The position numbers were made by a program, and so were the translations under genes. Positions 41,219 to 61,889 of a stretch of 64,000 nt of DNA are shown piece after piece. The notes under the pieces were generated by a model. The model worked only from the letters and a program-made list of their open reading frames with translations, was not told the origin of the DNA and searched no databases. Numbering within the stretch: the stretch's first letter is position 1; each line of letters begins with the position of its first letter. Origin of the DNA: Giardia intestinalis (Eukaryota); assembly GCA_000002435.2 (NCBI GenBank), contig CM018790.1; one strand, given 5' to 3'.

Positions 41219-41291
41219 GGGCGGTTAGCTCAGTTGGTAGAGCGCTTGCCTAGCATGCAAGAGGCCGGGGGTTCAAATCCCTCATCGTCCA
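41219..41291 (+). tRNA. tRNA-Ala (anticodon AGC)
   Basis: Hand-folded cloverleaf. Acceptor gggcggt/atcgtcc with G3:U70 (the Ala identity pair). D-arm gctc-agttggtag-agcg. Anticodon stem cttgc/gcaag with loop cTAGCAt. T-arm ggggg-ttcaaat-ccctc. Discriminator A. Confidence 0.8.
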
Positions 41292-41991
41292 CTTTCCGTC
41301 CCGCTCCACCGCACGGCCTGCAGCTCAGCGCGCCCTTGTGGGGCCTTGTCGTGCTCGCTGGGGCGCTTCCTGTTAATTTCTGGGGCCTTGCTCTTCGCCG
41401 TAAATGACCGACCTTGACCATGTGTGCTGTTCTGTACATGCAGCAGCTAGTTGTGAGCCGCGCCATCACCCCGTGGACGACCGTGGTCTGCAGCTTGTTC
41501 AGCGCAGCTTTCACTCGTTCTTGTAAGTATAAAGGCGCGCAAATCATCTCCCTGTTAGTCAATATACTCAGCTAGTGGGTCTACAGTGTGCCGAGACTAA
41601 AGCTCGTTGTAGAATTTATTGCAGGCATACTTAGAAGCACACAGGATCTTCACAGCGCACAGCACGAGTCTAAACTTATCTAGTGCTAAACTTTCGAAAA
41701 AAGACTGACAGTAGACTCGCTATCCCTGGTAAACGGGCATATATGTGTGAATAAAATACCAGTAAGGCTATGCAGAGCAGGGTCTACGTTGAAGAGGCCT
41801 GGATCTCGAAATGGAAAGAGAAAATAGAGCAAAAAAGTGAAGAATATTCTTCGAAAACAAGCGGCAGAAATAGTCCTAGATGCTAGATGAAGCATATCCT
41901 GGTCACAGAAGCCGCCGGCGACGCCAAATCACAACCGTTACGCTATATTAATGCATCAGATTGTGGCCATATATAATATTTGCAGAAGACC

Positions 41992-42945
41992 ATGGTTGGC
42001 TGCTGTCTATCACCCGCTGACCAAATTGAGGTCCTTCGTAAGCTAGCTGAAGAAGTTATCAGGGTACGAAAGATCCAAGAGACTGCAAATGATCTTGTTG
42101 CAAATCCTTACAGACTTTATACTTACGTTATAAAAACGTCTGTAAACTGGCGCAAAATTGCCACGGAGATCAACCAAAATCGCAACAGGATCTACCACTG
42201 GTACCGTGAAACGCATCTAAGAAACATTCTGAACATAAAGATGACAGAAGAAGATCGTCAGATTATCCGTGGAATTATCATAGATGGGATTGAAAGCAGA
42301 AGGATTGTGAGAGAAGACATCTATGGAAAGGTTCGCGAGAAATTTGGGAAAAAGTATCCACGCCAAGAATTGCGGATGACTTATAACAATATAATCAACA
42401 GCCGTAGTATCAAAACCCTCTTCAAGAAGTGCGGTATTCAGCATTCCTCGAGACGCAGCAGATCATGTGCGGCCATCCATCACCCATCTAGCGCAGAGCA
42501 GTGCCTCCCTAACGAGGAGGTGTTTAAACCACCCGTATTTCGCCTACCTGGTTACAATGATGAAACCCCATCTTCTCCTCAGGACGAAGACGAAACAGGG
42601 ACGTCTGTACCTGAGAACTCGCTATCTGCGCCACCAGAGTCTGTTGCTTGCAGCATTGTCGAGCCAAGGAACCTACCATCCAGCCTTTCCTTGGTTCCGC
42701 CCTTCGCGCCCACTCCTAGCGCTGCTCCGAATGTTTATCCGATCCCGGGTGTCTATCCGGCCCCTGGTGCCGTCCCTTATCTCCAGGCGTCGGGGGTGCT
42801 CAGTCTACAGCCGACGCCCTACCCCTTCGGCTTCGGGGTGCCGCTGACATACGTCCCTGTTCTGATACAATCGCCAGGACATACTGGCGGATGGCCCGTG
42901 GGCACGGGTGACGGTCCGCTCGGAAGGCCGACCAGGCAGCCCTGA
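41992..42945 (+). CDS. Myb/SANT-like HTH protein with Pro-rich C-terminus (paralog B)
   Basis: VNWRKIATEINQNRNRIYHWYRETHL and TEEDRQIIRGIIIDGIESRR. Paralogous to 22032..22922 (shared blocks IRVR, LVANP, YHWY.ET, MTYNN, SSRRS). The ORF-track start is a TTG; the ATG is at 41992. Confidence 0.5.
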   Translation: MVGCCLSPADQIEVLRKLAEEVIRVRKIQETANDLVANPYRLYTYVIKTSVNWRKIATEINQNRNRIYHWYRETHLRNILNIKMTEEDRQIIRGIIIDGIESRRIVREDIYGKVREKFGKKYPRQELRMTYNNIINSRSIKTLFKKCGIQHSSRRSRSCAAIHHPSSAEQCLPNEEVFKPPVFRLPGYNDETPSSPQDEDETGTSVPENSLSAPPESVACSIVEPRNLPSSLSLVPPFAPTPSAAPNVYPIPGVYPAPGAVPYLQASGVLSLQPTPYPFGFGVPLTYVPVLIQSPGHTGGWPVGTGDGPLGRPTRQP

Positions 42946-45104
42946 GCCCCTGCTGCACCGCCTCGCACCAGAGGAGGAATCACGGTCTACAGCCAGAAGG
43001 GCAAAAGAGGCGCGTGGGTGGAAGCGCTCTCCCGATTTTCTTTTCGAGCTCGAACAGAACAGCCGTAGAGACTGTACGAAAACATCCTACAGTACCATCG
43101 AGGCCTCGCACGGAGGGGTTCTGAATGGACGAACGCCTAGGCTGGGAGCCATTCTAGAGCCGATTCTGGCCGAGGAAGGGGCTCCCCGCTTACGGGGGCA
43201 TGGCGGCTCCGCTGGCCACGTACGGCGACAGTTGCCGGGTCAGCGGCCCAGCCAAACCAGCGATGCCGCTGCGGAAGCCACCCCCGGCCCTGTCCCACAC
43301 AGTCGATGCCCTTGGCAGCCGCCTGCTCCAGTCCAGATCCACCCCACCGGCTGCGTGCCAGGGCCAGACATCTAGCAACCACAGAGACACGTCCACCGAG
43401 GCCGACACTGGCTGCACACACCGACCGGCGCGTCGATTCGAGGCACAGACGCGCATTTTTTCTTTTGTCCGGCGAGATTCCGGGCTGCGCTGGCTGCACG
43501 GATGCACGCAGCTGTTCCGCGCCGGCCGGGGCTTTCCGAGGCAGGCCTTGCGCGAGAACGCGACGTCTCGTGCAGGTCCACCGACCCTCTGGCGGGCCCA
43601 CGGCCGCGGAGTGTCCGTCCCTGTTGCGATGCAGTGCACACGGCTTTGTAGCACGTGCAGAGACCCAGTTGCCCTGCCCTGGCTGTGGCTCCTGCGCGCT
43701 GCGGCCAGCCACTGAGACCAGCCCCCATTGGAGCAGGCCACGGCAGGGCCCGCCGGACAAGCTCTCTACATGAGCACATGCTGCACAGCTTAGAGGCGAA
43801 CGCTGCACAGCCCGGCTAGTGCTCGCTGCCCCTATCGCTGCGTGGTACCTCTTCGTGAGACGACTGCGCAAGGCCACCCGATCGAGGGCTACGGCAGGAC
43901 GCAAAGAGTGGACTAGTTCAGGGCGTTGTGCATCTAGTAGGCCTGTGAGTACGCCTAGGTCGTGTATAGCTATTACATCAACATACTCATGTAGGTGGAT
44001 ACAACTGATTGCTCCGAATGGACTGGTTCTTGATGGCGTGGGCTGATGGAAGGACGCATTTGTATTACAGGTCCAAGCATAGAGGGTGGCAGCAGGAAAC
44101 GAAAAGTGGCCTGATTGCTGGTGTGCAGGTAAATGCAGCTATTTACATTTGACTTACCTAGCATACTGGATGATCATACTGATTGGATTCCGATAAAATG
44201 CATGCACGAGACTTACTGGTGTCTACTGATTTAAGAATTGAATGAGCAAACGCTAGGATAAGCTTGGTATGCCAATAGATAAATCACATTTAGGGAGGTA
44301 ACAATGAAATTTGTAGGAATAAAGAGACGCTCATAATATGCTGTTTCGATGATAGTAAAGGCTCTAGCACGAAGTTCATTAATCTATTATCAACAGAGAT
44401 AATAAGAAATCCAGGAGAAATGATAGCGAATCTATAATACACCCCATAAAAGGCTATAAGCACTATGGGATAATTAAGAAATGTGAAGGATATACCAGAG
44501 AATGTTATTTAAAAGGAAAGAAGTGCGTATTCAAAATCAGCAATAGTAACAAGGATAGCCTCGTTGCCAAGGATTCCATCACTGTCATCCTTATTGTCAA
44601 CCTTTCTGTCAGAGGTTCTTTTACTGTAGGAAAGTATAAACATAATCATCTATTTAAGTGGTAAACGCATCGTCTAACATCTGCTCAGCAGCCTTACACA
44701 GAAGTCCCGAAATAAGTAGTCACGGGGCAGAGTCTCCTGACGCTGCCAAATAAGCATATATAGTGCTCCCTCTGCATGGAGCACTGGAGGCCCGGCACGG
44801 AGTGGCCACAACTTCTCGTGGATACAGGCTGGTCGAAGCCGCTGGTGGCTGTATCCTCCAACCCCCTGCTTCAGAGCGTGGCTGCGCATGCTCTGCACGG
44901 CGCCTTCTCCTGCAGTGTCCGTGCGCTCGCCGGATGGAGCGAACCCAGCTAGCTACGCGGCCGCCACTGCAGGCCCCTCTTCACCCTGTATGCAGAAGCG
45001 CTGACCCGGGAAGAGGTGTCCCAGGGAGCCACGGGCAGCTGGTTGGAGTGAAACACGTTGGGACTTTTTGAAAATGGCCCTGTCCCGTGCCGGCCACGCG
45101 GCCT

Positions 45105-45725
45105 CTAGACCAGCGAGGCGAGGAGCTTCTTGATCCCTGGGCGCGCACGGTAGCCATCAGATAGCTCGCGCAGCGGTGGAAACTGGTCCACGAGCTCCGG
45201 ATACTCTGCGTCCGCATAATACAGGACCTCCAGGACCGCGTAGTCCGAATAGAGCGGCTCGGGAGCCAGGCTCCGGAGGCTCAGCACGTCCCGGGTCAGA
45301 ACGGTCAATCCCGGAAGGATCCTGTTCTGTCGGTAGGCCGCGATGCACTCCGAGCGCGTCATCTCTGCCCCAGCGGCAAGGGCCTCTGCCACGGCTTCGG
45401 GCTCCTTCCAGACGGCGGCAAGAAGATCCTCACAGAAGAGCACCAGGGCCCGCGCAGCAGCCTGCACCTGCAATGACGTGCTGTACCGCCCCAGGCTCGC
45501 CCCCAGGTACTCTAGAATGACCATGCCCCCGGCCACCCGCGCTGCGCTGTCTTCCCACACGGGGAGCGTGCACGATGGTGCACCTACCTTCGCCGCGGCC
45601 ACCTGCTCAGCGCTCGCCAAGGGCGCCCACTCGTACCGTATCTCCAGGTCTGCGAGCAGGAGCCGGCACTTCAATGCGGTGCCCCGGGCGTCGTAGTACG
45701 TGAGTCTCGGCGGAACTACGTCCAT
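45105..45725 (-). CDS. glutathione S-transferase-fold protein (sigma/alpha-like cytosolic GST), GC-rich codon usage
   Basis: MDVVPPRLTYYDARGTALKCRLLLADLEIRYE...LPVWEDSAARVAGGMVILEYL aligns to the sigma-GST N-domain (KLTYFNMRGRAEIIRYIFAYLDIQYE...IPILEVDG..SLAIARYL). The C-domain aligns too. The ORF-track start is a TTG; the ATG is at 45725, preceded by 'gggaagtaaa'. Confidence 0.5.
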   Translation of the reverse strand: MDVVPPRLTYYDARGTALKCRLLLADLEIRYEWAPLASAEQVAAAKVGAPSCTLPVWEDSAARVAGGMVILEYLGASLGRYSTSLQVQAAARALVLFCEDLLAAVWKEPEAVAEALAAGAEMTRSECIAAYRQNRILPGLTVLTRDVLSLRSLAPEPLYSDYAVLEVLYYADAEYPELVDQFPPLRELSDGYRARPGIKKLLASLV

Positions 45726-46813
45726 TTTACTTCCCCGGTGGGCTCGTATCAACCGTGCCAAGGTGCGAGGCAACCCCTGGCACGCGGGCCGCCTCTCCCA
45801 GGGGGAGATCCTTGGGTTTCAGTTTACAACCTGAGCACCAGCTTCGTGTAGCTGCTATGCATTGCTAGCTACTACTGCCTGCATAGATAGTGGTGGGGTT
45901 GGGGTGGACACTAGGCTGGCGCGGTTTATGGAGGTCGTCTGCCTCCCGGGTCGCTTGAACCTAGCCGGAGTCTTCCCATTGGACCCTCTAAGTCATATCA
46001 CGAATCATAGGACGGATAAACTAGCCCCTAGCGGGTCAAAAGGGTCGGCAGTGATCGCAGCCACTGTGTCACTCGAGGACCTGTTGAGGCCCGGGACTCT
46101 GCAGAAGCCCCTCACTAGCTCGGTCTTGAAGTCCACGCTCTTGTGTGCCAAGATCCACGTCTTGTTATGCGTGCCGTGCTTTCCAGTACAATCGTGCTTA
46201 TACTTGTCGCCCTCTCTAATGCAGCTTCTAATGCTACCATGACGGGAGTTCTCGCTGTTTTGTACTTCATGTTTGTCAACACGGCCTAGGTGCCCTGCTG
46301 TCTGCTCTGCAGTCGCTTTATCTCCTGCTAAAAGGAAGTGAGAGCTCTTGGGTATCCGGTAAGACGTCCGGGCAAACGCGATAATGCTTCGATGAGTGTA
46401 CGTTAGTCGCATCGGCACAGAGCGCGTGCTAACCGGACGAAGCCATGTGCCTGCTGACTTCTATACAATATTCTAAGGCTATCCGGTCTCTGCATGGCAC
46501 CGCCAGGTGTGTAGTGGGGCCTGTGGCCATTAAGACCCAGAAGAGCCTCTTCTCCTACTTGGCTTCGGAGTCACTCCCAGTAGAGTATTGTTATGAGGCT
46601 GGTGTGCAGAGAAACACCGAATAGTTTGTACCGGTACACATGACCCCTTATCCCCAGACGGCACTCGCCATGGCTAGGCATTCGTAGAACCGCAGCATCG
46701 TGGGCTTGTGCACCGCTCACTGCCCATGCACGTGTAGCTGCAGACACACAAGCCAGTCGAGAGGCGCTTGCTTGCCCGGCTCCCTCATCACTGTTCAGAA
46801 CATCGAACTCCTT

Positions 46814-46893
46814 ATGCGAGCCACCGCCGCCCTGGGCAAGCGGGTCTCCCTCATCCCTGCATCAACCAAGATCAAAACCTAGAGTTCGAACTC
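46814..46893 (+). repeat. 80-bp repeat unit, copy A of an internal inverted pair
   Basis: atgcgagccaccgccgccctgggcaagcgggtctccc...ctagagttcgaactc. About 80% identical to the reverse complement of 48391..48465; the first 35 nt differ at 2 positions. Confidence 0.55.
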
Positions 46894-48390
46894 AGGTGTC
46901 AAGCGACTCTGGTGGGAGAAAAAGAACTTTTGTTCTGCCCTCTTCCCAAGAACGAGACAGGACAACCACGATCAGGGGACGATCATGATACGCTCCACAA
47001 GGCAGCCCCGAGCCGCCTGGAGACCAGACCCTGGCCTTCCTCGAGACCTAGCAGATTGCGTTCCACTGGATGTACATGGGTGGCGTTTGCATGGCGCAGG
47101 GAGACGCAGGCTGATGGGTACAGCGGTCTTGCTCGACATAATGAACTCCAACAGTAGACGGCCTCTGCCAGGCGAGTGTGCCCCGTCCCGAGGAGCTGCG
47201 TCGGGGCCTTCCTCCGGCTGCGACACACGAGGTATCTGGACTCGGTCCCTCAGGGCCCTGCGCATGCTTCTGTGCTGCGGGAGACAGAACCTGCTCGCCA
47301 GGAGCTGAAGGAGAGGCCCCGCTCAGTACCCATGCCGACGACACATTCAGCTTCCATAGTGACGACAAGCCTGGCGAAACGCTATAGCTCGACGGTCAAC
47401 ACTGGGTGTGGGAGCACTGAGGGGCAGGAGGCCTCCTTTCTAACTAGTCTCGAAGGAGCTTCCAAGACAACGAAGAGCCGAAGCTAGTGATGATGCGCCG
47501 ATCATTTGCCACGCTTGTCGAGATGGACCCACACGTGACCTATGTGAATCCCTCGACAGGCAAGTCGGCCCTTGGGGTGCTTGGCTGACAGAGGCGGACT
47601 GATCCCGACCGCACCGAAGAGTGGTAGCGGCTTGGACCACCTGCCGGGCGTCTGCCGCAGTAGCTGGCAGTGTCTGACATCCTCGAGTAGATGGGCGCCA
47701 AGCGAGACGGCCTGAGGGTGAACCAGTCCTGACCGCTCCCGGTGTCTCAGACGACGCCTCTTAGAGAGGTGGCCCTGGACCGACGCCTCGACAGACCGAA
47801 GCATCACCCCAGGTGTGCTGTGCGGTGTGAAGACGGACGTAGTCCGCATCGTCAGCTGAGCCAGACGCACTGCACAGGGTGAGCGTCGACATGATCTCGT
47901 GCTAGGTGATGGACCACCTGCAAGAGCGCACTGCGATCCATGGGCAGAGGGATGGGCCTCTTCCCCGACACCACCGCATGGGATTACTCCATCGGCATCC
48001 ATGAACGCGTACTCTGACTCCAAGACAGAGGCGTACGGGGGGCGCGCTCTCCCGGTCATACTCGGGACCGATGATACAATCCACGAGGAGACGAAGAGGC
48101 ACCCCGAGGAACGGGGTAGACACCCGGGGTCGTGGCGTATCCCATCTTCGTCGTAGAGCATCAGCGCCACAAAGCTACTCCGGAGTACATGGCCAGAGTC
48201 AAGCTTCCAAGGCCAGATCCTGTGACCGACGGCAGGCCCTGATATAGCGGGTGTCCACCCAGGTGCCAGACGATAGTTGACTCCGATGGGTCAGAGGAAG
48301 GGAAGTCCTAGAGGGCACCGCGAGGAGCGGCAGCTTCCAGGGGAAGCGGGAATAGGAGTTCTTCCGCCGGGATCAAGGGCATCCGCCTCT

Positions 48391-48465
48391 CGAACTCTGG
48401 ATTTGGATCTCGGCTGGTACAGGGGCGAGAGAGACTCGCTTGCCCAGGGTGGCGGTGGCTCGCAT
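48391..48465 (-). repeat. copy B (inverted) of the same repeat; with copy A brackets a ~1.5-kb segment
   Basis: The reverse complement reads atgcgagccaccgccaccctgggcaagcgagtctctctcgcccctgtaccagccgagatccaaatccagagttcg. Confidence 0.55.
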
Positions 48466-51400
48466 GGGAAGATTACTCAGATAGCAGGCGACAGCCCCAC
48501 CCCGGCTAAAAAACTTGAGGCAGCCGTTGCACCCGCCGCCCCCAGGACAGAGCTTCTGCACGCATGGCCAGCTGCCCTCGTCAGTCCGGTCTACTGGTCC
48601 AATAGTCTGGGGACCCTTTACGCCGTTTTCTGGCATACGATGTATCGCAACTGCTCATGGGAGTAAGCAGTATGAAAAGGCAATTGCATGTGTGGACAGC
48701 GTGTTATGCTCGTCTCAGAGGACCGATGTGTCTAAATACGGATCGCTGTACTGAGCCACACGCCCCACTGTCTTGCGCCAGTGACTGCCTCCACCACTGC
48801 ACTTGCTACAATGGAGCTGTGTCGGCCCAACAGATTGAACATGCCCCATATCGGCTCCCTCTGACGATGCGTACACGCCGCATAAGGTCTGATAGTAGAG
48901 CGGACACCGTGTGCCGAGGCGTCTGCCATTGATGGGAGACAGCACTTGGTTGCACCAGAGGTGCCTTTATGTAGGCCTACAATCTCTGTGCCTGCCCATC
49001 CACCGGTTGTAATGACAACTGCACACTCGGAAAGGCGCTATGGAAAGCTGCCTTTCAAGATGAGACGTAAACCCACATATAAAGCCAGAAGCAGAACCTT
49101 GTGCACAAACTGTTATGATCCTAGTGTGGTGACCGGTTTGGACTGCGGCACGCTCCTCGCCTATCTTATGTTCGTTTGCATGGTCGCTGCTAATGTTGAA
49201 CAGGACTGCGAGGAGATCTGTCTTTGGCTGCGCTCATCTTATAACACTTACCCCTTGATGACACACCTTAGCAAAGGAGGATGTCAGCCAGGTGCGTAGA
49301 AGGCTGCCCGTGCATGACGATTCCTGGAGAACTGGTTCATACAGAGAAGGTAGAGGTGACTAGCGGACCAGTTGGGCAAGGCTGACACCAGAGAGGCCAG
49401 CCACCGACCTGGATTGCAATAGGGACGCCTGTAGTGTCTTTCTTCCCTTCGGGTGTAGAAAGGTCGTGAGGCCCGCGGACAAGCTAGACGCTGCTTTCTG
49501 ATTTTATGCATTTGTAGCAGCATAGTGTTTATAGGGGTCTGCTTTGCCTGAGGCCGAGGACGTTCGCTTCCTCCTCGTATACGGACGAAGATCGGTTATA
49601 AGGATACACTGTGCAGGCTGGTACCAGTCGACGTGGTTGCTGTCCACAAATGTCTCGCCTGCGTCTTCTCATGGCAGATGATTACTAGCAGCGCTCTCAG
49701 CCCACGTGGCTAAGTCTACGGTGCATCTCCATTTCGGTCAAGGGTTGTATACGCATTACGTAGTCTGATTGATCATCAGCCAGGATAGTGTGGTCCACTC
49801 CTGTCCCCTGCTTGTCCATCTCGTGCAACTACTGCTGATGGCTTTTCTGGGTCAGTGGGTGCTTCCGTCAGTCCCACAAAGGAATGTGTCATGCAGACGG
49901 CCACTACAGGCAAGAGTCTTGTCTATCAAGAAAAGGGTCAATCGGTTTACTGCGTGGGGATCCTCTGTGCGTCTCATATAAGCCCGGCAGACCTTGTGCC
50001 CCCAGTATCTCCTCACAAGCCCCACCAGGCTCTTTTACCGTCTGGAATATCGCTACTGCCAAGCACCTTAGCTTCACTTGGCCACCCAGGGCGTTGACCC
50101 TTTGCAGCGCACTGTGGGCGTACTCACTGTGGGAGATGCACAATCAGCATTGGTCTTCTCAGCTCATCGTCTGTATGGTACTATGCTGCTTCTCAGCACA
50201 ACCCATTCTGTCGACCAGCAGGCCTTCAGACCAGGCAGCATCCCACCAAGGGGCGGTAGCAGGGACCGTGACGCGTATCTCCACCAAGGCACGGCCTCCT
50301 GGGGCATGAAGCGGGACCTCTGCCATCCTGTGGCCCTACTGATTCCTCGGATAGCAGAGATCGGAGCAGCCTAGGCTAGCGCCTTTGGGTCTCCATCTGT
50401 TCTCGTTGTCTGAGGTATACTTGACTCCAGAGACTCAGAAGGGTGCTGTACTATGTTCGTGCCTACGAGTCTTAGCCAGGCAGGGCTACCCTCTTGGAGA
50501 TTGCGCTGAGGTAGCCACATACCTGGAGCTCACCACAGCGGACCCACAGGGTCCAATCCATGGAACCCTTACCTGTCGAATGCAGGCCGTAATTGCAGCC
50601 CCACTGGTGCAGACTTTCTTAGAATAACCGGTCGACTATAGAGCCCCCCCCCACTCAGTCCACGTGAATGGACCACTCTCATCGATGGCCTACCTTGCAC
50701 GCCGAACGATCCCTACAGGCGAACAAAAATCATCCAGCCCGTAGCAGTGGACATCCTCTACACCGATGAATGGATGATCACAGCAGCCGCTTTCCTATTG
50801 AAGATTCTCCAGCCACTGAGGCCCAGGCCGGCCTCCTGCAGGATTCTTAGCAGGATCGTGCCCGATGCATGTTTGTGGCACTCCCCTCAAGGTGTATTCT
50901 GTTGGACCTTCGCTTCCTATACTGGCCTGCGAACATCGAGCCCTTCTAGCGGGGCCATACTGGAGATCACAAGGATATGGTGTCTTCGGAGACTATCCGG
51001 CTTCTGAGCCACACAATAGGGGCCCACTTCTCGCAGCAGCATCACGGAGAGGTGTATAGAGCTATACCATACCCTCTACCAGGTGACATGATGCATAAAT
51101 TAAGGGTAGGACACTTACACCGATCGGCATATCTACCCATGACCAGACACAGATTGGCCCGAAGGTAGCAATTAAATGTTGCTCGACACCCTTATCAGTG
51201 GATGGGCGCCCAACTACCCTGGTACCCGTACGAGGCCACAAGGGGCGCTGGGTCATAGATCTACTTAATGGCTGAGAAAGCGGCATGGACGCATCAGACC
51301 CCCATTCTTTCTATTCAAGTAGCCCACGACAGAGAGCCCTTTGACACTCCACACCCACAGGTTCGGGGTGCTGCGGGCAATCGTACTCCACTATTGCTTG

Positions 51401-52223
51401 CAGCGGATGGCATCAGGATAACCTTGGGTGGGAGAGAGTTGACTGGCCCAGAAAGCAGCGGTTTGGATAGCGTTTCCTCTCTGCCCAGGCTTGGAAGGTC
51501 TAGCCTGCGCCTTCTGCGCTTCACCTGACACCTCGTTGTGTACTGGGGTGGCTTATTAGTATTTACTCCAAAAGATCAAAACTAGCGCCATGTGCACTTA
51601 GCAGGCCGGTGCGCCTCGTTAGCTAGTTTATGCTGGCTTACGCCTTCCACAGACTCTAGCGGCTGCTGGGATCTTCTCTCGGGATCCAGCAAAGGTTTGT
51701 CTTTGAGCGTAGCTCCCCTGCGACAGCAAAGGGTCGCGGGCATGATCTGGTGGGTGGGAATACTAGGAGCGGATAGGAGAGTGCCGGCATACATGGGCCC
51801 GTAGAGCTCTAACCAGCGCAGGGAAGTGCAGGTGTCTGGCTCTCCGGAAATGCAGAGGCGCCGGTAGCGGGCATGGGCACAGTGGGGGCGCCCGGGCTGT
51901 CCTCCGATTGGCCGCGGAGAAGGGGGATGCCCGGCGCACGGGACGGTTCTGCTGTTTGCTTTTAGAATTTCTACTTCCTTGCGTGCTTTGCAAGGAGTGC
52001 GGGGCTCCTCGGATGTCGCTTGGCCAGGCCTGGAGGGCCCGCGATGGACGAGGTGGTGGGCTTATATAATGAACGCGTTTGGCATTCGCTGGGCTCCTCC
52101 TTCCTAGACCGAGGTATCGTAGGAGTAGGGTCTCTTCGGACTACCTGCATAGCACAGTCAGATAGACGTTTTTAGCTCTAACTATCGGACTCTTATCTAT
52201 GTAATAAGCCGAGAGGGATATCA

Positions 52224-52991
52224 ATGTTACTCATAGCCTTCTACCTTGTGCTAAGTACGCTCGCTGTCCGGCATACAACAAATCACCACTCTGAATATCT
52301 ACGCTCGGGATCTCGGTCTAATAGAGATACAGGCAATCGTGATAATGCATATGCTGCAGGGAACTGCAAGGACGGGATGGAAGAGCAGGTCGGCGCGGAT
52401 ACCGTGTGCAAGCAGTGCAACGCAGGGTTTGTCCCCATAAACGGAGTCTGCACCGCACAGGGCACCCCATCAATTGCGACCGCAGGGTGCAAGCTGGCCA
52501 ATAATGACCCTCCTGGACAGGACTCCACTGTGTGTGAGCAGTGCGGAACAGACGCCACTTACTTCCTATACAAGGGCGGATGCTACGACGCCAGCACAGG
52601 CGTGGGGCAGAGCCTTTGTAAGCGCGCATCTAACGGAGCCTGCACAGAGGCGGGAGAAGGCTACTTTGCTGCACCAAACGCCAAGGCTACCGAGCAGTCT
52701 GTTATCCCGTGCTCGGACACGACAGGGGTGACTCTCACCGGAGATAAGCAATACGTGGGGGTGGAGAACTGCGCGACGTGTGATGCTCCAGCTGGAGATG
52801 AAACGGTAGCAAAATGTAAGACATGTAGTGACAGATTCAGTTTAAGAGACAACCAATGTGTGCCTTCTAGCGTCAACAAGAGCGGCCTTTCTACCGGCGC
52901 CATTGCGGGCATCGCCGTGGCTGCTGTCATAGTTGTTGGTGGTCTCGTTGGGTTCCTCTGCTGGTGGTTCCTCTGCCGGGGCAAGGCGTAG
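52224..52991 (+). CDS. VSP: variant-specific surface protein (VSP), short 255-aa member
   Basis: Signal peptide MLLIAFYLVLSTLAV, CxxC motifs, GGCYD motif, TM AIAGIAVAAVIVVGGLVGFLCWWFL and the invariant C-terminal CRGKA. True ATG at 52224. Confidence 0.85.
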   Translation: MLLIAFYLVLSTLAVRHTTNHHSEYLRSGSRSNRDTGNRDNAYAAGNCKDGMEEQVGADTVCKQCNAGFVPINGVCTAQGTPSIATAGCKLANNDPPGQDSTVCEQCGTDATYFLYKGGCYDASTGVGQSLCKRASNGACTEAGEGYFAAPNAKATEQSVIPCSDTTGVTLTGDKQYVGVENCATCDAPAGDETVAKCKTCSDRFSLRDNQCVPSSVNKSGLSTGAIAGIAVAAVIVVGGLVGFLCWWFLCRGKA

Positions 52992-53003
52992 ATGTACTTA
53001 GGT

Positions 53004-53010
53004 AGTAAAC
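53004..53010 (+). promoter_or_regulatory. putative polyadenylation signal AGTAAAC (AGTRAAY) 13 nt after the VSP stop
   Basis: tag atgtacttaggtAGTAAACgcg; mirrored on the minus strand at 55693..55699 for the second VSP copy. Confidence 0.45.
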
Positions 53011-55711
53011 GCGTTACTTTATGTAGCTTATGTAGATGTGCTGCTAGGCTCACTTGCTGGTGTGTCCAGAAGTTTCACGAGTAAATCCTCGTTCAAGTCC
53101 TGGCTGTCCAAAGACGAGAACTGATTGTGGATAACATGACGGAGAGTCCTCTCCAGTGATGCATCCAGAGCCTGGTGCGCTCCTCTGCCGTTTCGCAGGC
53201 GTGTGCTCAGGCTGAGTATGCACGTCGGTCCTTTCGGGGTTCAGGCCTTCTCGTGGACTCTCTGCTCTACCAGCGGTGTCTCTCCTTGGTCTTCCTTCAC
53301 GGTGGGTGAAGCTTGGATCGCCGTCTTTTTTAGATGCCCCGTCTGTCAGGGGCTGCCATCGGGCTCTCCGCTGGCCGCCCCTCGGTGTCCGTCCGGCTGT
53401 GTCCCGGGTCAGCGCTTCTACAGTCGCGGTCACGTAGGTCTCAGTGGGCCAGCTGGGGGGTGGGGCGGGGGTATGGGCGGTGAGGCTGGAGGGGACCGGG
53501 TGGGGGCTGAGGTGGGGTGTCCGTATGTGATCCTGGGTCCGGTGGGTCATTGCGGTGGTGGGTGATCCCCGCTCTGTTTGCTAAGGTGGTTGTGTCTGAT
53601 CACCAGCCTGCGTTGCACTCCCGAGACAGAGGCACCGACGATCGTGTCGTGTCCCCCGACTGAGCGCCTCCCTTAGCCCCTGCATGTCTCAGGCAGTACT
53701 GCTGCTCTGTCTGGCTGGTGCGTGAAGGGTGAGGCAGGCCATCGCAGCCCCTCCTGATGCTCTGCGCGGGTCTGCTGAGCCCCTGGCATGCCCTGTCCAG
53801 TGCCTCGACGGGGAGTTCGCCTCGGGCCAGCAGGGGTGTGGATGACCTTGTGAATGGGATGGGGTTCTCTCAGGCCTCTAGTGTGATGGCCCAGAAGACT
53901 GGCACGGTGGGGCACCAGTGACTGCACTGTCCCCGTGGTCAGCTGTGCTGCTCCTGGTGGGTCCTTGTCATGGAGCGCTGTGTGTTGTTCATAGGCAGAG
54001 GTGATCCCTCTTGGTCTCAAGATGCTCTACCAGCAGAGAGAAGCACGCTGAGGGTCACCCAACATCACCTGCTGTGTCCTCTTGGGAGTTCCCGATGTGA
54101 TCTATCAGGACCTTGACACCTCCTCGTGGCTCTGATGACCCCTCGGGGAGAGCCGGCATCCTATACTGAGGGGCGTACACCTTCCTGCATGAGCTGGGCC
54201 CCACTGCACTGCCCCCAAGGAGGTCTGCTATGAGAGGCAGTGGGATGATTGACAGCCCCTCAGAGTGCGGTGGAGGGTGCTCGTGGTCATCTCTGTGACC
54301 GGGCATCACTCATGATGGTCGGCTCTGTGCCTTATGGTGCTCAGAGACCACCTGTGCTCCATCGCCTGCTGGACAGCCGGGCCTCTTGTGGCGTCCGAAG
54401 GTCTCCTCACTCCTCTGGTCACTGCCCCCTCGGATCATCGGTGGAGGCCAGCGAGTCTTCGGAGTCTGGTGCCTGCCTGGGTGTCATGGGGGGCTGGCAG
54501 CTGTCAAGGCTCTGCCACTGCTCACCTGCCTGGAGTGTGCCTCCCTTGGGCCTGCTTTGCTGTGCTGCTTGAGTCCTCTGGCTTCTATCAGGCCCTGGTT
54601 GTGAGGGTGACCCCACCTGGCCTTCTGATGCCCCTGTGGATGAGCATAGCAATGTGTCTGGCTGGGGATCTCTAGTGCCCGTGTCTGTCACTGCCTCTCG
54701 GGTGCTCGGGTAGTTGCCTGGCGCTCTCGTATGGGCACACAGTCAGCGTATGTGGGTGGTCCTCCTGCACTCGTGTCCGTCTGTGTGCACTGTCACTCAG
54801 TCTCGAGAGCAGGCCAGTGCAGTCACCAGGGCTGCTGTCAGAGGGAGTCGTCTGCCACTACCATCGCTCGAGCAGCCCCTGCAGATCAGGCTGGTTGCTG
54901 TGCACCCTCATGGCAGGGCTGCTTGGCTCCCTTGGTCTCCTCTCTGTCCCGGTGTGCACGGCTCCTTCGGGTGGCTGACGGGGTAGTGGCCTCCGGTGAG
55001 TCTGCACTGGGAGGCACCGAGGAGGGAGGACAGCTAGGCTGGCACCACTCTCTGACTCCTGAGGGTTGCCTGGATGGAGGCACTCACGAGTCCACAGAGG
55101 GGTGAGTTATAGATACACAGCCCCCAGTCACCACAGCTGCGATCACCCCAGTCTATCGAGTGGCCAGGGGCACAGACAACACCGCTCCAATGGCCCACCA
55201 GTCCCCTCCAGCCTCACCGTCCCATACTCCCGCCCCACCCACCATCCGAACCCACTGAGACCCAGGTGACTGCGACCGTAGAGCGCTGACTCGAGTCACA
55301 GCCGGACGGACACCGAGGGGCCCAGCCAGGGGAGAGCCCCGACAGCAATCACCGAGTCAGACGGGGCATCTAAAAAAGACGGCGATCCAAGCTTCACCCA
55401 CCGTGAAGGAAGACCAAGGAGAGACACCGCTGGTAGAGCAGAGAGTCCACGAGAAGGCCTGAACCCCGAAAGGACCGACGTGCATACTCAGCCTGAGCAC
55501 ACGCCTGCGAAACGGCAGAGGAGCGCACCAGGCTCTGGATGCATCACTGGAGAGGACTCTCCGTCATGTTATCCACAATCAGTTCTCGTCTTTGGACAGC
55601 CAGGACTTGAACGAGGATTTACTCGTGAAACTTCTGGACACACCAGCAAGTGAGCCTAGCAGCACATCTACATAAGCTACATAAAGTAACGCGTTTACTA
55701 CCTAAGTACAT

Positions 55712-56479
55712 CTACGCCTTGCCCCGGCAGAGGAACCACCAGCAGAGGAACCCAACGAGACCACCAACAACTATGACAGCAGCCACGGCGATGCCCGCAA
55801 TGGCGCCGGTAGAAAGGCCGCTCTTGTTGACGCTAGAAGGCACACATTGGTTGTCTCTTAAACTGAATCTGTCACTACATGTCTTACATTTTGCTACCGT
55901 TTCATCTCCAGCTGGAGCATCACACGTCGCGCAGTTCTCCACCCCCACGTATTGCTTATCTCCGGTGAGAGTCACCCCTGTCGTGTCCGAGCACGGGATA
56001 ACAGACTGCTCGGTAGCCTTGGCGTTTGGTGCAGCAAAGTAGCCTTCTCCCGCCTCTGTGCAGGCTCCGTTAGATGCGCGCTTACAAAGGCTCTGCCCCA
56101 CGCCTGTGCTGGCGTCGTAGCATCCGCCCTTGTATAGGAAGTAAGTGGCGTCTGTTCCGCACTGCTCACACACAGTGGAGTCCTGTCCAGGAGGGTCATT
56201 ATTGGCCAGCTTGCACCCTGCGGTCGCAATTGATGGGGTGCCCTGTGCGGTGCAGACTCCGTTTATGGGGACAAACCCTGCGTTGCACTGCTTGCACACG
56301 GTATCCGCGCCGACCTGCTCTTCCATCCCGTCCTTGCAGTTCCCTGCAGCATATGCATTATCACGATTGCCTGTATCTCTATTAGACCGAGATCCCGAGC
56401 GTAGATATTCAGAGTGGTGATTTGTTGTATGCCGGACAGCGAGCGTACTTAGCACAAGGTAGAAGGCTATGAGTAACAT
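55712..56479 (-). CDS. VSP: variant-specific surface protein (VSP), identical second copy, convergent with 52224..52991
   Basis: Identical 255-aa translation ending ...FLCWWFLCRGKA on the minus strand. Confidence 0.85.
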   Translation of the reverse strand: MLLIAFYLVLSTLAVRHTTNHHSEYLRSGSRSNRDTGNRDNAYAAGNCKDGMEEQVGADTVCKQCNAGFVPINGVCTAQGTPSIATAGCKLANNDPPGQDSTVCEQCGTDATYFLYKGGCYDASTGVGQSLCKRASNGACTEAGEGYFAAPNAKATEQSVIPCSDTTGVTLTGDKQYVGVENCATCDAPAGDETVAKCKTCSDRFSLRDNQCVPSSVNKSGLSTGAIAGIAVAAVIVVGGLVGFLCWWFLCRGKA

Positions 56480-59400
56480 TGATATCCCTCTCGGCTTATT
56501 ACATAGATAAGAGTCCGATAGTTAGAGCTAAAAACGTCTATCTGACTGTGCTATGCAGGTAGTCCGAAGAGACCCTACTCCTACGATACCTCGGTCTAGG
56601 AAGGAGGAGCCCAGCGAATGCCAAACGCGTTCATTATATAAGCCCACCACCTCGTCCATCGCGGGCCCTCCAGGCCTGGCCAAGCGACATCCGAGGAGCC
56701 CCGCACTCCTTGCAAAGCACGCAAGGAAGTAGAAATTCTAAAAGCAAACAGCAGAACCGTCCCGTGCGCCGGGCATCCCCCTTCTCCGCGGCCAATCGGA
56801 GGACAGCCCGGGCGCCCCCACTGTGCCCATGCCCGCTACCGGCGCCTCTGCATTTCCGGAGAGCCAGACACCTGCACTTCCCTGCGCTGGTTAGAGCTCT
56901 ACGGGCCCATGTATGCCGGCACTCTCCTATCCGCTCCTAGTATTCCCACCCACCAGATCATGCCCGCGACCCTTTGCTGTCGCAGGGGAGCTACGCTCAA
57001 AGACAAACCTTTGCTGGATCCCGAGAGAAGATCCCAGCAGCCGCTAGAGTCTGTGGAAGGCGTAAGCCAGCATAAACTAGCTAACGAGGCGCACCGGCCT
57101 GCTAAGTGCACATGGCGCTAGTTTTGATCTTTTGGAGTAAATACTAATAAGCCACCCCAGTACACAACGAGGTGTCAGGTGAAGCGCAGAAGGCGCAGGC
57201 TAGACCTTCCAAGCCTGGGCAGAGAGGAAACGCTATCCAAACCGCTGCTTTCTGGGCCAGTCAACTCTCTCCCACCCAAGGTTATCCTGATGCCATCCGC
57301 TGCAAGCAATAGTGGAGTACGATTGCCCGCAGCACCCCGAACCTGTGGGTGTGGAGTGTCAAAGGGCTCTCTGTCGTGGGCTACTTGAATAGAAAGAATG
57401 GGGGTCTGATGCGTCCATGCCGCTTTCTCAGCCATTAAGTAGATCTATGACCCAGCGCCCCTTGTGGCCTCGTACGGGTACCAGGGTAGTTGGGCGCCCA
57501 TCCACTGATAAGGGTGTCGAGCAACATTTAATTGCTACCTTCGGGCCAATCTGTGTCTGGTCATGGGTAGATATGCCGATCGGTGTAAGTGTCCTACCCT
57601 TAATTTATGCATCATGTCACCTGGTAGAGGGTATGGTATAGCTCTATACACCTCTCCGTGATGCTGCTGCGAGAAGTGGGCCCCTATTGTGTGGCTCAGA
57701 AGCCGGATAGTCTCCGAAGACACCATATCCTTGTGATCTCCAGTATGGCCCCGCTAGAAGGGCTCGATGTTCGCAGGCCAGTATAGGAAGCGAAGGTCCA
57801 ACAGAATACACCTTGAGGGGAGTGCCACAAACATGCATCGGGCACGATCCTGCTAAGAATCCTGCAGGAGGCCGGCCTGGGCCTCAGTGGCTGGAGAATC
57901 TTCAATAGGAAAGCGGCTGCTGTGATCATCCATTCATCGGTGTAGAGGATGTCCACTGCTACGGGCTGGATGATTTTTGTTCGCCTGTAGGGATCGTTCG
58001 GCGTGCAAGGTAGGCCATCGATGAGAGTGGTCCATTCACGTGGACTGAGTGGGGGGGGGCTCTATAGTCGACCGGTTATTCTAAGAAAGTCTGCACCAGT
58101 GGGGCTGCAATTACGGCCTGCATTCGACAGGTAAGGGTTCCATGGATTGGACCCTGTGGGTCCGCTGTGGTGAGCTCCAGGTATGTGGCTACCTCAGCGC
58201 AATCTCCAAGAGGGTAGCCCTGCCTGGCTAAGACTCGTAGGCACGAACATAGTACAGCACCCTTCTGAGTCTCTGGAGTCAAGTATACCTCAGACAACGA
58301 GAACAGATGGAGACCCAAAGGCGCTAGCCTAGGCTGCTCCGATCTCTGCTATCCGAGGAATCAGTAGGGCCACAGGATGGCAGAGGTCCCGCTTCATGCC
58401 CCAGGAGGCCGTGCCTTGGTGGAGATACGCGTCACGGTCCCTGCTACCGCCCCTTGGTGGGATGCTGCCTGGTCTGAAGGCCTGCTGGTCGACAGAATGG
58501 GTTGTGCTGAGAAGCAGCATAGTACCATACAGACGATGAGCTGAGAAGACCAATGCTGATTGTGCATCTCCCACAGTGAGTACGCCCACAGTGCGCTGCA
58601 AAGGGTCAACGCCCTGGGTGGCCAAGTGAAGCTAAGGTGCTTGGCAGTAGCGATATTCCAGACGGTAAAAGAGCCTGGTGGGGCTTGTGAGGAGATACTG
58701 GGGGCACAAGGTCTGCCGGGCTTATATGAGACGCACAGAGGATCCCCACGCAGTAAACCGATTGACCCTTTTCTTGATAGACAAGACTCTTGCCTGTAGT
58801 GGCCGTCTGCATGACACATTCCTTTGTGGGACTGACGGAAGCACCCACTGACCCAGAAAAGCCATCAGCAGTAGTTGCACGAGATGGACAAGCAGGGGAC
58901 AGGAGTGGACCACACTATCCTGGCTGATGATCAATCAGACTACGTAATGCGTATACAACCCTTGACCGAAATGGAGATGCACCGTAGACTTAGCCACGTG
59001 GGCTGAGAGCGCTGCTAGTAATCATCTGCCATGAGAAGACGCAGGCGAGACATTTGTGGACAGCAACCACGTCGACTGGTACCAGCCTGCACAGTGTATC
59101 CTTATAACCGATCTTCGTCCGTATACGAGGAGGAAGCGAACGTCCTCGGCCTCAGGCAAAGCAGACCCCTATAAACACTATGCTGCTACAAATGCATAAA
59201 ATCAGAAAGCAGCGTCTAGCTTGTCCGCGGGCCTCACGACCTTTCTACACCCGAAGGGAAGAAAGACACTACAGGCGTCCCTATTGCAATCCAGGTCGGT
59301 GGCTGGCCTCTCTGGTGTCAGCCTTGCCCAACTGGTCCGCTAGTCACCTCTACCTTCTCTGTATGAACCAGTTCTCCAGGAATCGTCATGCACGGGCAGC

Positions 59401-60237: not shown

Positions 60238-60312
60238 ATGCGAGCCACCGCCACCCTGGGCAAGCGAGTCTCTCTCGCCCCTGTACCAGCCGAGATCCAA
60301 ATCCAGAGTTCG
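60238..60312 (+). repeat. mirror copy of repeat B in the right arm
   Basis: atgcgagccaccgccaccctgggcaagcgagtctctctcgcc... read directly at 60238. Confidence 0.55.
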
Positions 60313-61809: not shown

Positions 61810-61889
61810 GAGTTCGAACTCTAGGTTTTGATCTTGGTTGATGCAGGGATGAGGGAGACCCGCTTGCCCAGGGCGGCGGTGGCTCGCAT
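61810..61889 (-). repeat. mirror copy of repeat A in the right arm
   Basis: Reverse complement of gagggagacccgcttgcccagggcggcggtggctcgcat at ~61850-61889. Confidence 0.55.

What the first reader, a model, noticed from the sequence alone, without database searches (positions are those of the whole stretch)
45105..45725. GST-fold gene with alien codon usage, duplicated in both palindrome arms
The product aligns along its length to sigma/alpha-class cytosolic GSTs. The match covers the N-terminal LTYY-ARG beta1-alpha1 motif, the cis-Pro/LE..G/YL block and the C-domain. It is extremely Ala-rich and ~66% GC, unlike the Giardia housekeeping genes 5 kb away. Giardia relies on cysteine rather than glutathione, so a canonical GST is unexpected. 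Candidate explanations are horizontal acquisition, a repurposed GST-fold protein, or a decaying copy.
Basis: partly seen in the sequence, partly recalled or inferred. Interest (0 to 1): 0.6.

Follow-up and report, generated by a model that had tools for sequence, protein, structure and literature searches.

The report
Native, GC-enriched Giardia GST-like gene
This is an already-annotated Giardia gene for a glutathione-S-transferase-fold protein. It was inherited from Giardia's own protist ancestors, not acquired from outside, and its odd GC- and alanine-rich make-up arose recently inside duplicated, recombining parts of the genome.

Summary

It is not new. The sequence is exactly XP_001708273.1/A8BBE3, "Glutathione S-transferase-like protein" of Giardia intestinalis WB.

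It is not alien. An exhaustive search of 1.8 billion proteins found G. muris, then other fornicates (Dysnectes, Kipferlia, Chilomastix), then eukaryotic sigma GSTs. No named hit is bacterial. The G. muris ortholog and the one in an AT-rich Giardia lineage have the composition of their own genomes. GC3 rises only in assemblages B (0.60), A (0.79) and E (0.94). The rise coincides with duplicated, near-identical tracts and hits all three codon positions, which points to GC-biased gene conversion.

It is not decaying: dN/dS is 0.09-0.16.

However, five of eight canonical glutathione-contact side chains are changed. Whether the protein uses glutathione, another thiol or none is untested. Interest is low to moderate.

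The parts
45105..45725 (-). GST-like coding sequence, copy 1 (206 aa plus stop). It is identical to XP_001708273.1 / KAE8302024.1 / UniProt A8BBE3.
62978..63598 (+). GST-like coding sequence, copy 2, 100% identical to copy 1, in the second palindrome arm.
44703..53504 (.). Palindrome arm 1. It is 100% identical to arm 2 up to 53345, then 99.6% overall to 53504. The outer edge at 44703 is set by the window end, not by the biology.
55194..64000 (.). Palindrome arm 2, truncated by the end of the window.
53505..55193 (.). Unique, non-palindromic centre. GC is 0.62 and the + strand is strongly A-poor. No ORF here matched a protein family.
52224..52991 (+). Small variant-specific surface protein gene (255 aa, CRGKA tail) at the inner end of arm 1.
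   Evidence: PF03302, 106 bits
55712..56479 (-). Mirror copy of the small VSP gene in arm 2. It is convergent with the first copy.
41980..42945 (+). Last gene of the conserved core ('MVGCCLSP...'). It is tail-to-tail with the GST-like gene. This arrangement is conserved in assemblage E, which anchors the locus as orthologous. The GC-rich block begins right after it.

Best explanation
The ORF is a native, vertically inherited Giardia gene under purifying selection. It encodes a cytosolic GST-fold protein of the Tyr-type sigma/pi/alpha group. It belongs to a small, very divergent eukaryotic subfamily found in Giardia species and other fornicates.

Its 'alien' composition is a recent, lineage-specific change rather than a sign of foreign origin. 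In the G. duodenalis complex the gene sits at the edge of variable, VSP-bearing regions. There it exists in several copies, often as inverted duplicates, and the copies keep each other nearly identical by ectopic gene conversion. The inference is that GC-biased repair of those conversion tracts, or an equivalent local GC drive, pushed GC upward at all three codon positions. That raised GC3 to 0.79 in assemblage A and 0.94 in E, and dragged the protein toward GCN (Ala) codons.

At the protein level, the likely mechanism is as follows. The thioredoxin-like N-domain presents Tyr10 at the end of beta1, Lys46, and the cis-Pro55 loop to bind and activate a thiol. A clade-invariant Trp106, with the Cys98-Glu99-Asp100 motif on helix alpha4, lines the second-substrate pocket. 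The thiol is most plausibly glutathione or its precursor gamma-Glu-Cys, both of which Giardia can make. The gamma-glutamyl-binding side chains are remodelled, so affinity or specificity must differ from canonical GSTs.

Shown here: identity, fold, phylogenetic neighbourhood, composition by lineage, selection, synteny and the converted tracts.

Inferred here: that gene conversion causes the GC rise, and every statement about substrate and catalysis.
For: Identity: an exact match to XP_001708273.1 'Glutathione S-transferase-like protein' of G. intestinalis ATCC 50803, with two paralogs (96-97% aa) on the 4.0 Mb chromosome.

Vertical descent: only 30 of 1.84e9 representative proteins reach E<=1e-3. 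In order they are G. muris (2e-52), two unnamed compact eukaryote contigs, Dysnectes, Ceratiomyxa, Kipferlia and Chilomastix, then sigma-type GSTs of animals and fungi.

Composition follows the host genome outside assemblages A, B and E:
- G. muris: GC3 0.54, neighbours 0.57-0.74.
- AT-rich Logan lineage: 0.37, neighbours 0.29-0.33.
- Assemblage B: 0.60, core neighbours 0.37-0.48.
- Assemblage A: 0.79, neighbours about 0.52.
- Assemblage E: 0.94, neighbours about 0.43.
- Ala rises from 8.8% to 10.4%, 16.4% and 19.1% across the Logan lineage, B, A and E.

Directional drive at all codon positions: derived AT-to-GC versus GC-to-AT changes are 80:18 in WB (26:4, 14:3 and 40:11 at positions 1, 2 and 3) and 87:5 in P15.

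Concerted evolution:
- The two P15 copies lie at different loci. Both loci are old: one is collinear with window 41068-46802, the other is syntenic with the Logan lineage next to TOR.
- The two P15 coding sequences are 98.8% identical to each other, yet only 86% identical to the WB ortholog.
- The shared tract is 787 nt, the gene plus about 70 nt on each side. In L002, GC drops from about 0.7 to 0.43 at the downstream end of that tract.
- One public protein (P0018) is a mosaic of the two WB paralog types.

Selection: dN/dS is 0.09-0.16.

Glutathione context: the GSH1 and GSH2 genes are present and regulated in Giardia and were lost in Hexamitinae (PMC6934886; PMC8700996; PMC7762791). No named hit comes from Hexamitinae.
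Against: Gene conversion is inferred from patterns of identity. No conversion event or AT-to-GC transmission bias was observed directly.

In WB, GC-rich DNA extends well beyond the gene, over non-repeated-looking sequence from 42946 onward. A regional mutational or recombinational bias tied to VSP regions could act without paralog conversion.

The polarisation of substitutions uses only two outgroups, and one of them is itself compositionally extreme.

On function, five of the eight pi-class glutathione-contact side chains are changed:
- Arg13 to Thr16
- Trp38 to Glu40
- Gln51 to Thr53
- Gln64 to Gly66
- Ser65 to Gly67 in WB (Ser in B, E and the Logan lineage; Ala in G. muris).

Published work states that Giardia has no GST and that cysteine is its main thiol (PMC5377010; PMC6934886).

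No canonical AGTRAAY polyadenylation signal follows the stop codon in any ortholog.

No expression data could be retrieved.
Confidence: 0.72

Rival explanations
1. Horizontal acquisition. The gene was recently imported into Giardia from a GC-rich donor, which would explain the foreign codon usage.
For: GC3 is 0.79, against 0.52 +/- 0.045 in neighbouring genes (z about 6), and Ala is 16.4%. The gene lies in a non-core, VSP-bearing region.
Against: The closest relatives are G. muris and other fornicates, then eukaryotic sigma GSTs. No bacterial hit appears among the named hits. Orthologs in G. muris and the AT-rich lineage are embedded among housekeeping genes and have native composition. The GC rise is graded across assemblages and affects the flanking non-coding DNA.
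Confidence: 0.03
2. A decaying or non-functional copy. The duplicated gene in a junk-like palindrome is a pseudogene in the making.
For: Several glutathione-contact residues are lost, including Ser to Gly67 specifically in assemblage A. There is no canonical polyadenylation signal. The gene sits in a gene-poor 6.5 kb stretch. Pfam scores are marginal.
Against: The full-length ORF is intact in every assemblage, in G. muris and in other fornicates. dN/dS is 0.09-0.16. The model folds with pLDDT 93.9. The start context is conserved. The missing polyadenylation signal and the Gln-to-Gly change are shared by all orthologs, so they are old features and not recent decay.
Confidence: 0.04
3. A repurposed, glutathione-independent GST-fold protein. 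It keeps the fold but acts as a binding or scaffold protein, as S-crystallins and the eEF1B-gamma or AIMP GST domains do, or uses cysteine or another ligand instead of glutathione. This rivals only the functional part of the best explanation.
For: The side chains equivalent to Arg13, Trp38, Gln51, Gln64 and Ser65 of GSTP1 are replaced. Cysteine is the main low-molecular-weight thiol in Giardia (PMC6934886). The Kipferlia homolog has Phe in place of the catalytic Tyr and is fused to a ubiquitin-like N-terminus. The Pfam GST_N and GST_C_3 scores are below their cut-offs.
Against: Tyr10, Arg14, Lys46 and cis-Pro55 are retained. A clade-invariant Trp106 and a conserved Cys-Glu-Asp motif on alpha4 suggest a preserved ligand pocket. 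The Gly-Gly/Ser at the N-terminus of alpha3 could still bind a carboxylate through backbone amides, as the GG motif of glutaredoxins does (established knowledge, not tested here). Among named hits, the family is found in lineages reported to keep glutathione metabolism and not in Hexamitinae, which lost it.
Confidence: 0.35
4. Translational selection. The high GC3 reflects codon optimisation of a highly expressed gene, since highly expressed Giardia genes prefer G/C-ending codons.
For: GC3 (0.79) is much higher than GC2 (0.47). The link between expression and GC3 in Giardia comes from general knowledge and was not tested here.
Against: The AT-to-GC bias is equally strong at codon positions 1 and 2 (26:4 and 14:3), so it changes the amino-acid composition. 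Flanking non-coding DNA is also GC-rich: 0.71 upstream in P15 and 0.58-0.62 in WB. Orthologs in G. muris and the AT-rich lineage show no elevated GC3.
Confidence: 0.08
5. The palindrome, and hence the second copy, is an assembly artefact of long-read sequencing.
For: The arms are 100% identical over 8.6 kb. The public look-up lists only one contig for this exact protein.
Against: The centre is a unique 1.7 kb spacer, and the arms pick up mismatches near it (99.65% over 8809 nt). Hairpin-chimera artefacts do not look like that. An independent older assembly of assemblage E also shows a head-to-head inverted partial copy of this gene (L002 1-338). WB has two further copies a few genes apart on another chromosome.
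Confidence: 0.1

Closest known systems
Giardia 'Glutathione S-transferase-like protein' entries (XP_001708273.1/A8BBE3, KAE8304971.1, KAE8304978.1; G. muris TNJ27416.1)
   Same: The window protein is residue-for-residue XP_001708273.1. The others are paralogs (96-97% identity) or the G. muris ortholog (about 46% identity, E 2e-52).
   Different: Nothing differs; it is the same gene. The public entries are name-only annotations. No functional or evolutionary study turned up in the searchable literature.
Sigma-class GSTs / haematopoietic prostaglandin D synthase (e.g. 2wb9, 2hnl, 1m0u, 2gsq, 6w8h)
   Different: Identity is only about 18-20%. The second Arg (Arg14 of H-PGDS) is Thr16. The Gln-Ser pair at the start of alpha3 is Gly-Gly in WB and Gly-Ser in the other assemblages. 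The subfamily has its own Trp106 and Cys-Glu-Asp motif on alpha4.
Pi- and alpha-class GSTs (Onchocerca GST2 1tu7; human GSTP1, GSTA1)
   Different: Identity is 20-22%. The equivalents of Arg13/15, Trp38, Gln51/54, Gln64/67 and Ser65/Thr68 are replaced.
Cephalopod S-crystallins and the eEF1B-gamma GST-like domain (the Giardia EF1B-gamma studied in PMC5377010)
   Different: The window protein is a stand-alone protein of about 206 aa. It keeps the catalytic Tyr and is closer to active sigma/pi enzymes than to eEF1B-gamma. There is no evidence that it is structural.

Membership tests
Cytosolic GST superfamily (GST fold) | N-terminal thioredoxin-like beta-alpha-beta-alpha-beta-beta-alpha domain followed by an all-helical C-domain of about 200 aa | tested here: met
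Cytosolic GST superfamily (GST fold) | Significant match to curated GST sequence models | tested here: met
   GST_N_2 scores 27.3 bits against a cut-off of 25. GST_N (20.0 vs 20.9) and GST_C_3 (18.2 vs 21.6) fall just below theirs. The profile against PDB GSTs gives E 4e-7.
Cytosolic GST superfamily (GST fold) | Conserved cis-Pro loop before beta3, and an N-capping box Asp in alpha6 | tested here: met
   Leu54-Pro55 is invariant and Asp161 is at least 90% conserved across the family alignments. The cis geometry itself was not inspected.
Tyr-type GSTs (alpha/mu/pi/sigma) | Catalytic Tyr at the C-terminal end of beta1 | tested here: met
   Tyr10 aligns with Tyr9 of GSTA1 and Tyr7 of GSTP1. It is conserved in at least 90% of the clade, with Kipferlia (Phe) as the exception.
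Tyr-type GSTs (alpha/mu/pi/sigma) | Gamma-glutamyl-binding Gln/Glu-Ser/Thr pair at the beta4-alpha3 turn | tested here: not met
   Gly66-Gly67 in WB, Gly-Ser in assemblages B, E and the Logan lineage, Gly-Ala in G. muris, and His/Gly variants in other fornicates. The canonical sigma hits in the same alignment have Gln-Ser.
Tyr-type GSTs (alpha/mu/pi/sigma) | Second Arg of the R-G-R motif (Arg13 in pi, Arg15 in alpha, Arg14 in sigma) and the Gln before the cis-Pro (Gln51 in pi, Gln54 in alpha) | tested here: not met
   These positions are Thr16 and Thr53. Some bona fide sigma-like hits also lack the second Arg, so this feature defines the family only weakly.
Tyr-type GSTs (alpha/mu/pi/sigma) | Basic residue binding the glycyl carboxylate of glutathione (Lys44 in pi, Arg45 in alpha, Lys43 in sigma) | tested here: met
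   Lys46 lies nine residues before the cis-Pro, as in GSTP1. It is invariant in the G. duodenalis complex.
Functional glutathione transferase (enzyme) | Binds glutathione and catalyses thiol conjugation, reduction or isomerisation; forms a dimer | not testable with these tools
   No biochemical data were found in the literature. No complex or dimer model was made.
Horizontally transferred gene | Nearest relatives lie outside the host's own lineage, and the composition is foreign in all host relatives | tested here: not met
   The nearest relatives are Giardia and other fornicates. The composition is native in G. muris and in the AT-rich Giardia lineage.

The most novel reading that the evidence does not exclude
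Two linked readings remain open.

(a) The Giardia/fornicate proteins form an undescribed GST class. Its gamma-glutamyl pocket has been rebuilt: Gln-Ser has become Gly-Gly/Ser, the second Arg and the loop Gln have become Thr, and a new invariant Trp106 and Cys-Glu-Asp motif have appeared. This class would use a thiol other than glutathione, such as cysteine or gamma-Glu-Cys. It would give Giardia a cysteine-dependent 'GST' and a parasite-specific drug or redox target.

(b) The graded GC3 series of one orthologous gene (0.37, 0.54, 0.60, 0.79, 0.94), together with near-identical paralogs, would be a clean natural record of strong GC-biased gene conversion in Giardia. Recombination in Giardia has long been debated (my own background knowledge).
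Probability: 0.15. Interest if true: 0.6.

Novelty: already known. Interest (0 to 1): 0.27.

Why it matters
The practical result is a correction. The gene is not a foreign insertion and not a wreck. It is an annotated, conserved Giardia gene whose unusual composition was produced by the genome region it lives in. This is a useful caution against reading GC or codon outliers as horizontal transfer in genomes with recombining multi-copy regions.

Two points keep some interest alive:
- Published work on Giardia redox biology and on the GST inhibitor NBDHEX states that Giardia has no GST (PMC5377010). Yet a stand-alone, selectively constrained, multi-copy GST-fold gene with the catalytic Tyr exists beside the GSH1 and GSH2 genes. 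Its activity and thiol specificity are worth a simple biochemical test.
- The locus offers a compact case for studying gene conversion and GC drive near VSP regions.

Tried and rejected
- The first AlphaFold run used only five near-identical Giardia sequences and gave pLDDT 52. I discarded it. A 20-sequence alignment that included distant relatives gave 93.9.
- The word-indexed protein search found only four Giardia clusters. It missed even G. muris when repeated with a profile. The exhaustive search was needed.
- Exact-sequence contig look-ups for the WB proteins returned nothing. I could therefore not examine the DNA of the chromosome-5 paralogs, nor test their synteny with the TOR-adjacent locus of P15.
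- The afdb50 structural library was unavailable.
- Literature searches by accession number and by name, plus a search of the supplements of the encystation expression atlas, found no study or expression value for this gene. Most 'GST' mentions in Giardia papers refer to fusion tags or host proteins.
- Rfam and tandem-repeat scans of 41-64 kb found only one tRNA-Ala and one unrelated short repeat.
- A self-BLAST of the GC-rich block found no further diverged copies of the gene.
- ORFs on the opposite strand of the gene and in the flanking GC-rich DNA (e.g. 43137-43904, 47502-48170, 49884-50309) have no family match. I treat them as by-products of the GC-rich sequence.
- I considered that the unnamed close homologs P0037 and P0038 might be Hexamitinae. 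Their contigs use TAA and TAG as stop codons, which argues against the Hexamitinae with reassigned codons (my own knowledge), although the organisms remain unidentified.
Full report
**1. What is at the coordinates**

The ORF list gives 45105..45773 on the minus strand, 222 aa from an upstream TTG. The first ATG gives 45105-45725, 206 aa, starting MDVVPPRLTYYDARGT. Directly upstream is 'GTAAA ATG'. An A-rich context of this kind is conserved before the start codon of every ortholog I recovered.

The window holds one large inverted repeat, 44703-53345 against 55358-64000, 100% complementary. A gapped comparison extends it, with mismatches, to 53504 and 55194: 99.65% over 8809 nt. That leaves a unique centre of about 1.7 kb. 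The mirror copy of the ORF, 62978-63598(+), is identical to the first.

The outer edge of arm 1 (44703) is simply the mirror image of the window end (64000). The real extent of the palindrome is therefore unknown.

**2. Is it a GST-fold gene?**

Yes. The evidence is:
- Pfam GST_N_2 scores 27.3 bits against a cut-off of 25. GST_N and GST_C_3 fall just under their cut-offs.
- A profile of the Giardia sequences matches solved pi- and alpha-class GSTs at E about 4e-7, over almost the full length for GSTA1.
- A first structure prediction from five close sequences was poor, with pLDDT 52.
- With a 20-sequence alignment including distant relatives, the model reached pLDDT 93.9 and pTM 0.89. It shows the canonical beta-alpha-beta-alpha-beta-beta-alpha N-domain and a helical C-domain.
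- Foldseek against the PDB puts human GSTA1 and GSTP1 on top: E 3e-9, TM about 0.74, 21-23% identity.

**3. Is it new?**

No. The 206-aa product is present, residue for residue, in public databases as XP_001708273.1 / KAE8302024.1 / UniProt A8BBE3. It is named 'Glutathione S-transferase-like protein' of Giardia intestinalis ATCC 50803 and lies on a 1.54 Mb chromosome.

Other copies and orthologs:
- WB carries two more copies, KAE8304971.1 and KAE8304978.1, at 96-97% identity, a few genes apart on the 4.0 Mb chromosome.
- Assemblage E (P15) has two copies.
- Assemblage B (GS and others) has three or more accessions.
- A further lineage, known only from a sequencing run (ERR3333381), has a 69%-identical ortholog.

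**4. Is it alien?**

The composition claim is true locally. GC is 0.655, GC3 0.79 and Ala 16.4%. The 18 core ORFs in the window have GC3 of 0.516 +/- 0.045. Three lines of evidence nevertheless show the gene is native.

(a) Relatives. An exhaustive HMMER search of 1.84 billion representative proteins found only 30 hits at E<=1e-3. In order they are:
- G. muris 'Glutathione S-transferase-like protein' (2e-52);
- two unnamed proteins on compact, intron-poor-looking contigs that use all three standard stop codons;
- Dysnectes brevis, Ceratiomyxa, Kipferlia bialata and Chilomastix cuspidata;
- ordinary eukaryotic sigma-type GSTs, including mite, chytrid, octopus S-crystallin, scallop, and an entry named 'prostaglandin-H2 D-isomerase/glutathione transferase'.

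No named hit is bacterial.

(b) Composition of the orthologs.

| Lineage | GC3 of the gene | GC3 of neighbours | Ala |
|---|---|---|---|
| G. muris (single gene among housekeeping genes) | 0.54 | 0.57-0.74 | 10.9% |
| AT-rich Logan lineage | 0.37 | 0.29-0.33 | 8.8% |
| Assemblage B (next to VSP genes) | 0.60 | 0.37-0.48 (core) | 10.4% |
| Assemblage A (this window) | 0.79 | about 0.52 | 16.4% |
| Assemblage E | 0.94 | about 0.43 | 19.1% |

The 'foreign' look is therefore a derived state inside the G. duodenalis complex.

(c) The GC-richness is not confined to the coding sequence. In WB almost everything from 42946 to 64000 has GC 0.54-0.64, non-coding DNA included. In P15 the 1.4 kb upstream of the gene has GC 0.71.

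**5. What produced the composition**

The window locus is orthologous to P15 locus GLP15_4272. That contig aligns collinearly with window 41068-46802, running from the core gene 'MVGCCLSP...' through the GST-like gene.

The other P15 copy, GLP15_1665, sits four genes from TOR. It shares that synteny with the AT-rich lineage, so this second locus is also old.

Yet the two P15 coding sequences are 98.8% identical to each other and only 86% identical to the WB ortholog. That is the signature of concerted evolution. Further details support it:
- The shared tract is 787 nt, the gene plus about 70 nt on each side. In L002, GC falls from about 0.7 to 0.43 at the downstream end of that tract.
- The P15 contig also begins with an inverted partial copy of the gene's 5' end. 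Inverted duplication of this gene therefore recurs in WB (twice) and in P15.
- One public protein, P0018, is a mosaic of the two WB paralog types.

I polarised substitutions using sites where assemblage B and the AT-rich lineage agree. Derived AT-to-GC changes outnumber GC-to-AT changes 80:18 in WB and 87:5 in P15. The bias appears at codon positions 1 and 2 as well as 3. That explains the Ala enrichment and argues against selection on synonymous codons.

My inference is GC-biased gene conversion among the copies, or a closely related recombination-linked GC drive in VSP-bearing regions. This step is inferred, not shown.

**6. Is it decaying?**

No. dN/dS between assemblages is 0.09-0.16. The ORF is intact in all lineages, and the sequence folds confidently.

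**7. How it probably works**

I mapped positions onto GSTP1 and GSTA1 from the printed profile alignments, the spacing to the cis-Pro, and the model's secondary structure.

Retained:
- Tyr10 (equivalent to Tyr7 of pi and Tyr9 of alpha)
- Arg14
- Lys46 (equivalent to Lys44 of pi)
- Leu54-Pro55 (the cis-Pro loop)
- the alpha6 capping Asp161

Replaced:
- the second Arg of R-G-R, now Thr16
- the Trp38 equivalent, now Glu40 (mapped by spacing only)
- Gln51 of pi / Gln54 of alpha, now Thr53
- the Gln-Ser/Thr pair at the start of alpha3, now Gly66-Gly67 in WB (Gly-Ser in B, E and the AT-rich lineage; Gly-Ala in G. muris; His/Gly variants in other fornicates)

The ordinary sigma GSTs in the same alignment keep Gln-Ser. 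The subfamily has its own invariant Trp106 and a conserved Cys98-Glu99-Asp100 on helix alpha4.

I read this as a Tyr-type thiol transferase with a remodelled gamma-glutamyl pocket and a conserved, specific second-substrate pocket. I cannot decide computationally whether the thiol is glutathione.

In favour of a glutathione link:
- Giardia species encode glutamate-cysteine ligase and glutathione synthetase, both up-regulated during encystation (PMC8700996).
- Giardiinae and Kipferlia retain this pathway, while Hexamitinae lost it (PMC6934886; PMC7762791).
- No Hexamitinae protein appears among the named hits.

Against:
- the residue replacements listed above;
- the dominance of cysteine as the free thiol in Giardia (cited in PMC6934886).

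I put roughly 40-50% on a glutathione or gamma-Glu-Cys-dependent enzyme, about 35% on a glutathione-independent or binding role, and the rest on unknown.

**8. Context**

The inner end of each arm carries a small VSP gene of 255 aa with the CRGKA tail (PF03302, 106 bits). The two VSP copies converge on the unique centre.

In assemblage B the GST-like gene also lies beside VSP genes. In every draft assembly it sits at or near a contig end. This fits a position at the border between conserved core and variable, repeated DNA.

**9. Literature**

I found no paper on this gene, and no entry in the supplements of the encystation atlas. One paper on the GST inhibitor NBDHEX states that neither GST nor glutathione cycling is present in Giardia, and discusses only the GST-like domain of EF1B-gamma (PMC5377010). 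The stand-alone GST-like gene thus seems to have been overlooked functionally, although it is annotated.

**10. Verdict**

The fold call is right. Horizontal transfer and decay are rejected. Repurposing remains open.
- Novelty: already known as an annotated gene.
- Interest is low to moderate (0.27). What remains is the untested biochemistry of a remodelled GST in an organism said to lack GSTs, and the tidy case of recombination-linked GC enrichment.

Noticed in passing
window 52224-52991(+) and 55712-56479(-): A very short VSP gene (255 aa, CRGKA tail; PF03302, 106 bits) is present as a convergent, identical pair flanking the palindrome centre.
   Followed up: partly
window 53505-55193: The unique palindrome centre has GC 0.62 and is strikingly A-poor on the + strand (AT skew about -0.3). 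No ORF with a family match, RNA family or repeat was found. Its nature is unexplained.
   Followed up: partly
window 45800-52200 (and its mirror 56500-62900): About 6.5 kb has no convincing gene. The only ORF of 200 aa or more is 47502-48170, and it has no Pfam match. This is unusual for the compact Giardia genome. A 76-nt inverted repeat (84% identity) links 46814-46889 and 48390-48465.
   Followed up: partly
window 44101-44702: A sharp AT-rich island (GC 0.37) is embedded in the GC-rich block, just outside the measurable edge of the palindrome arm.
   Followed up: no
window 42946-45104: The 2.2 kb intergenic stretch between the last core gene and the GST-like gene is alignable with assemblage E (about 77% identity), yet no gene is called there in either genome. 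The 255-aa ORF 43137-43904(-) has no family match and looks like a by-product of the GC-rich sequence.
   Followed up: partly
L002 1-338 (P15 contig ACVC01000177.1): An inverted partial copy of the GST-like gene's 5' end and upstream region (90% identical to L006 4836-5179) lies about 1 kb upstream of GLP15_1665. It indicates a head-to-head inverted duplication in assemblage E as well, cut by the contig end.
   Followed up: partly
protein P0018 (Logan assembly, 206 aa): This sequence is a mosaic. Its N-terminal and C-terminal parts match the window paralog, and the middle (NLRSLAFEPLD...AEC) matches the 4.0 Mb-chromosome paralogs. It is either a gene-conversion product or a chimeric assembly.
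   Followed up: no
protein P0041 (Kipferlia bialata GIQ80603.1, 580 aa): Here the GST-like domain is the C-terminal 200 aa of a longer protein with what looks by eye like a ubiquitin-like N-terminus (not tested) and a long low-complexity linker. The catalytic Tyr is Phe. This could be a real fusion or a gene-model artefact.
   Followed up: no
window 41219-41292(+): A tRNA-Ala (AGC) gene lies between core genes, just before the GC-rich block (Rfam 68.4 bits; ARAGORN).
   Followed up: yes
window 37960-39435(-): A tubulin-family gene (491 aa; Tubulin and Tubulin_C domains) lies among the core genes. The 3123-aa ORF at 3739-13110 was not characterised.
   Followed up: no
window 45040-45095 and the P15 loci L002/L006, downstream of the stop codon: No canonical Giardia AGTRAAY polyadenylation signal follows the stop codon in any ortholog. 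A conserved 'GGGCCATTTTCAAAAAG' element lies about 25-45 nt downstream in assemblages A and E.
   Followed up: partly
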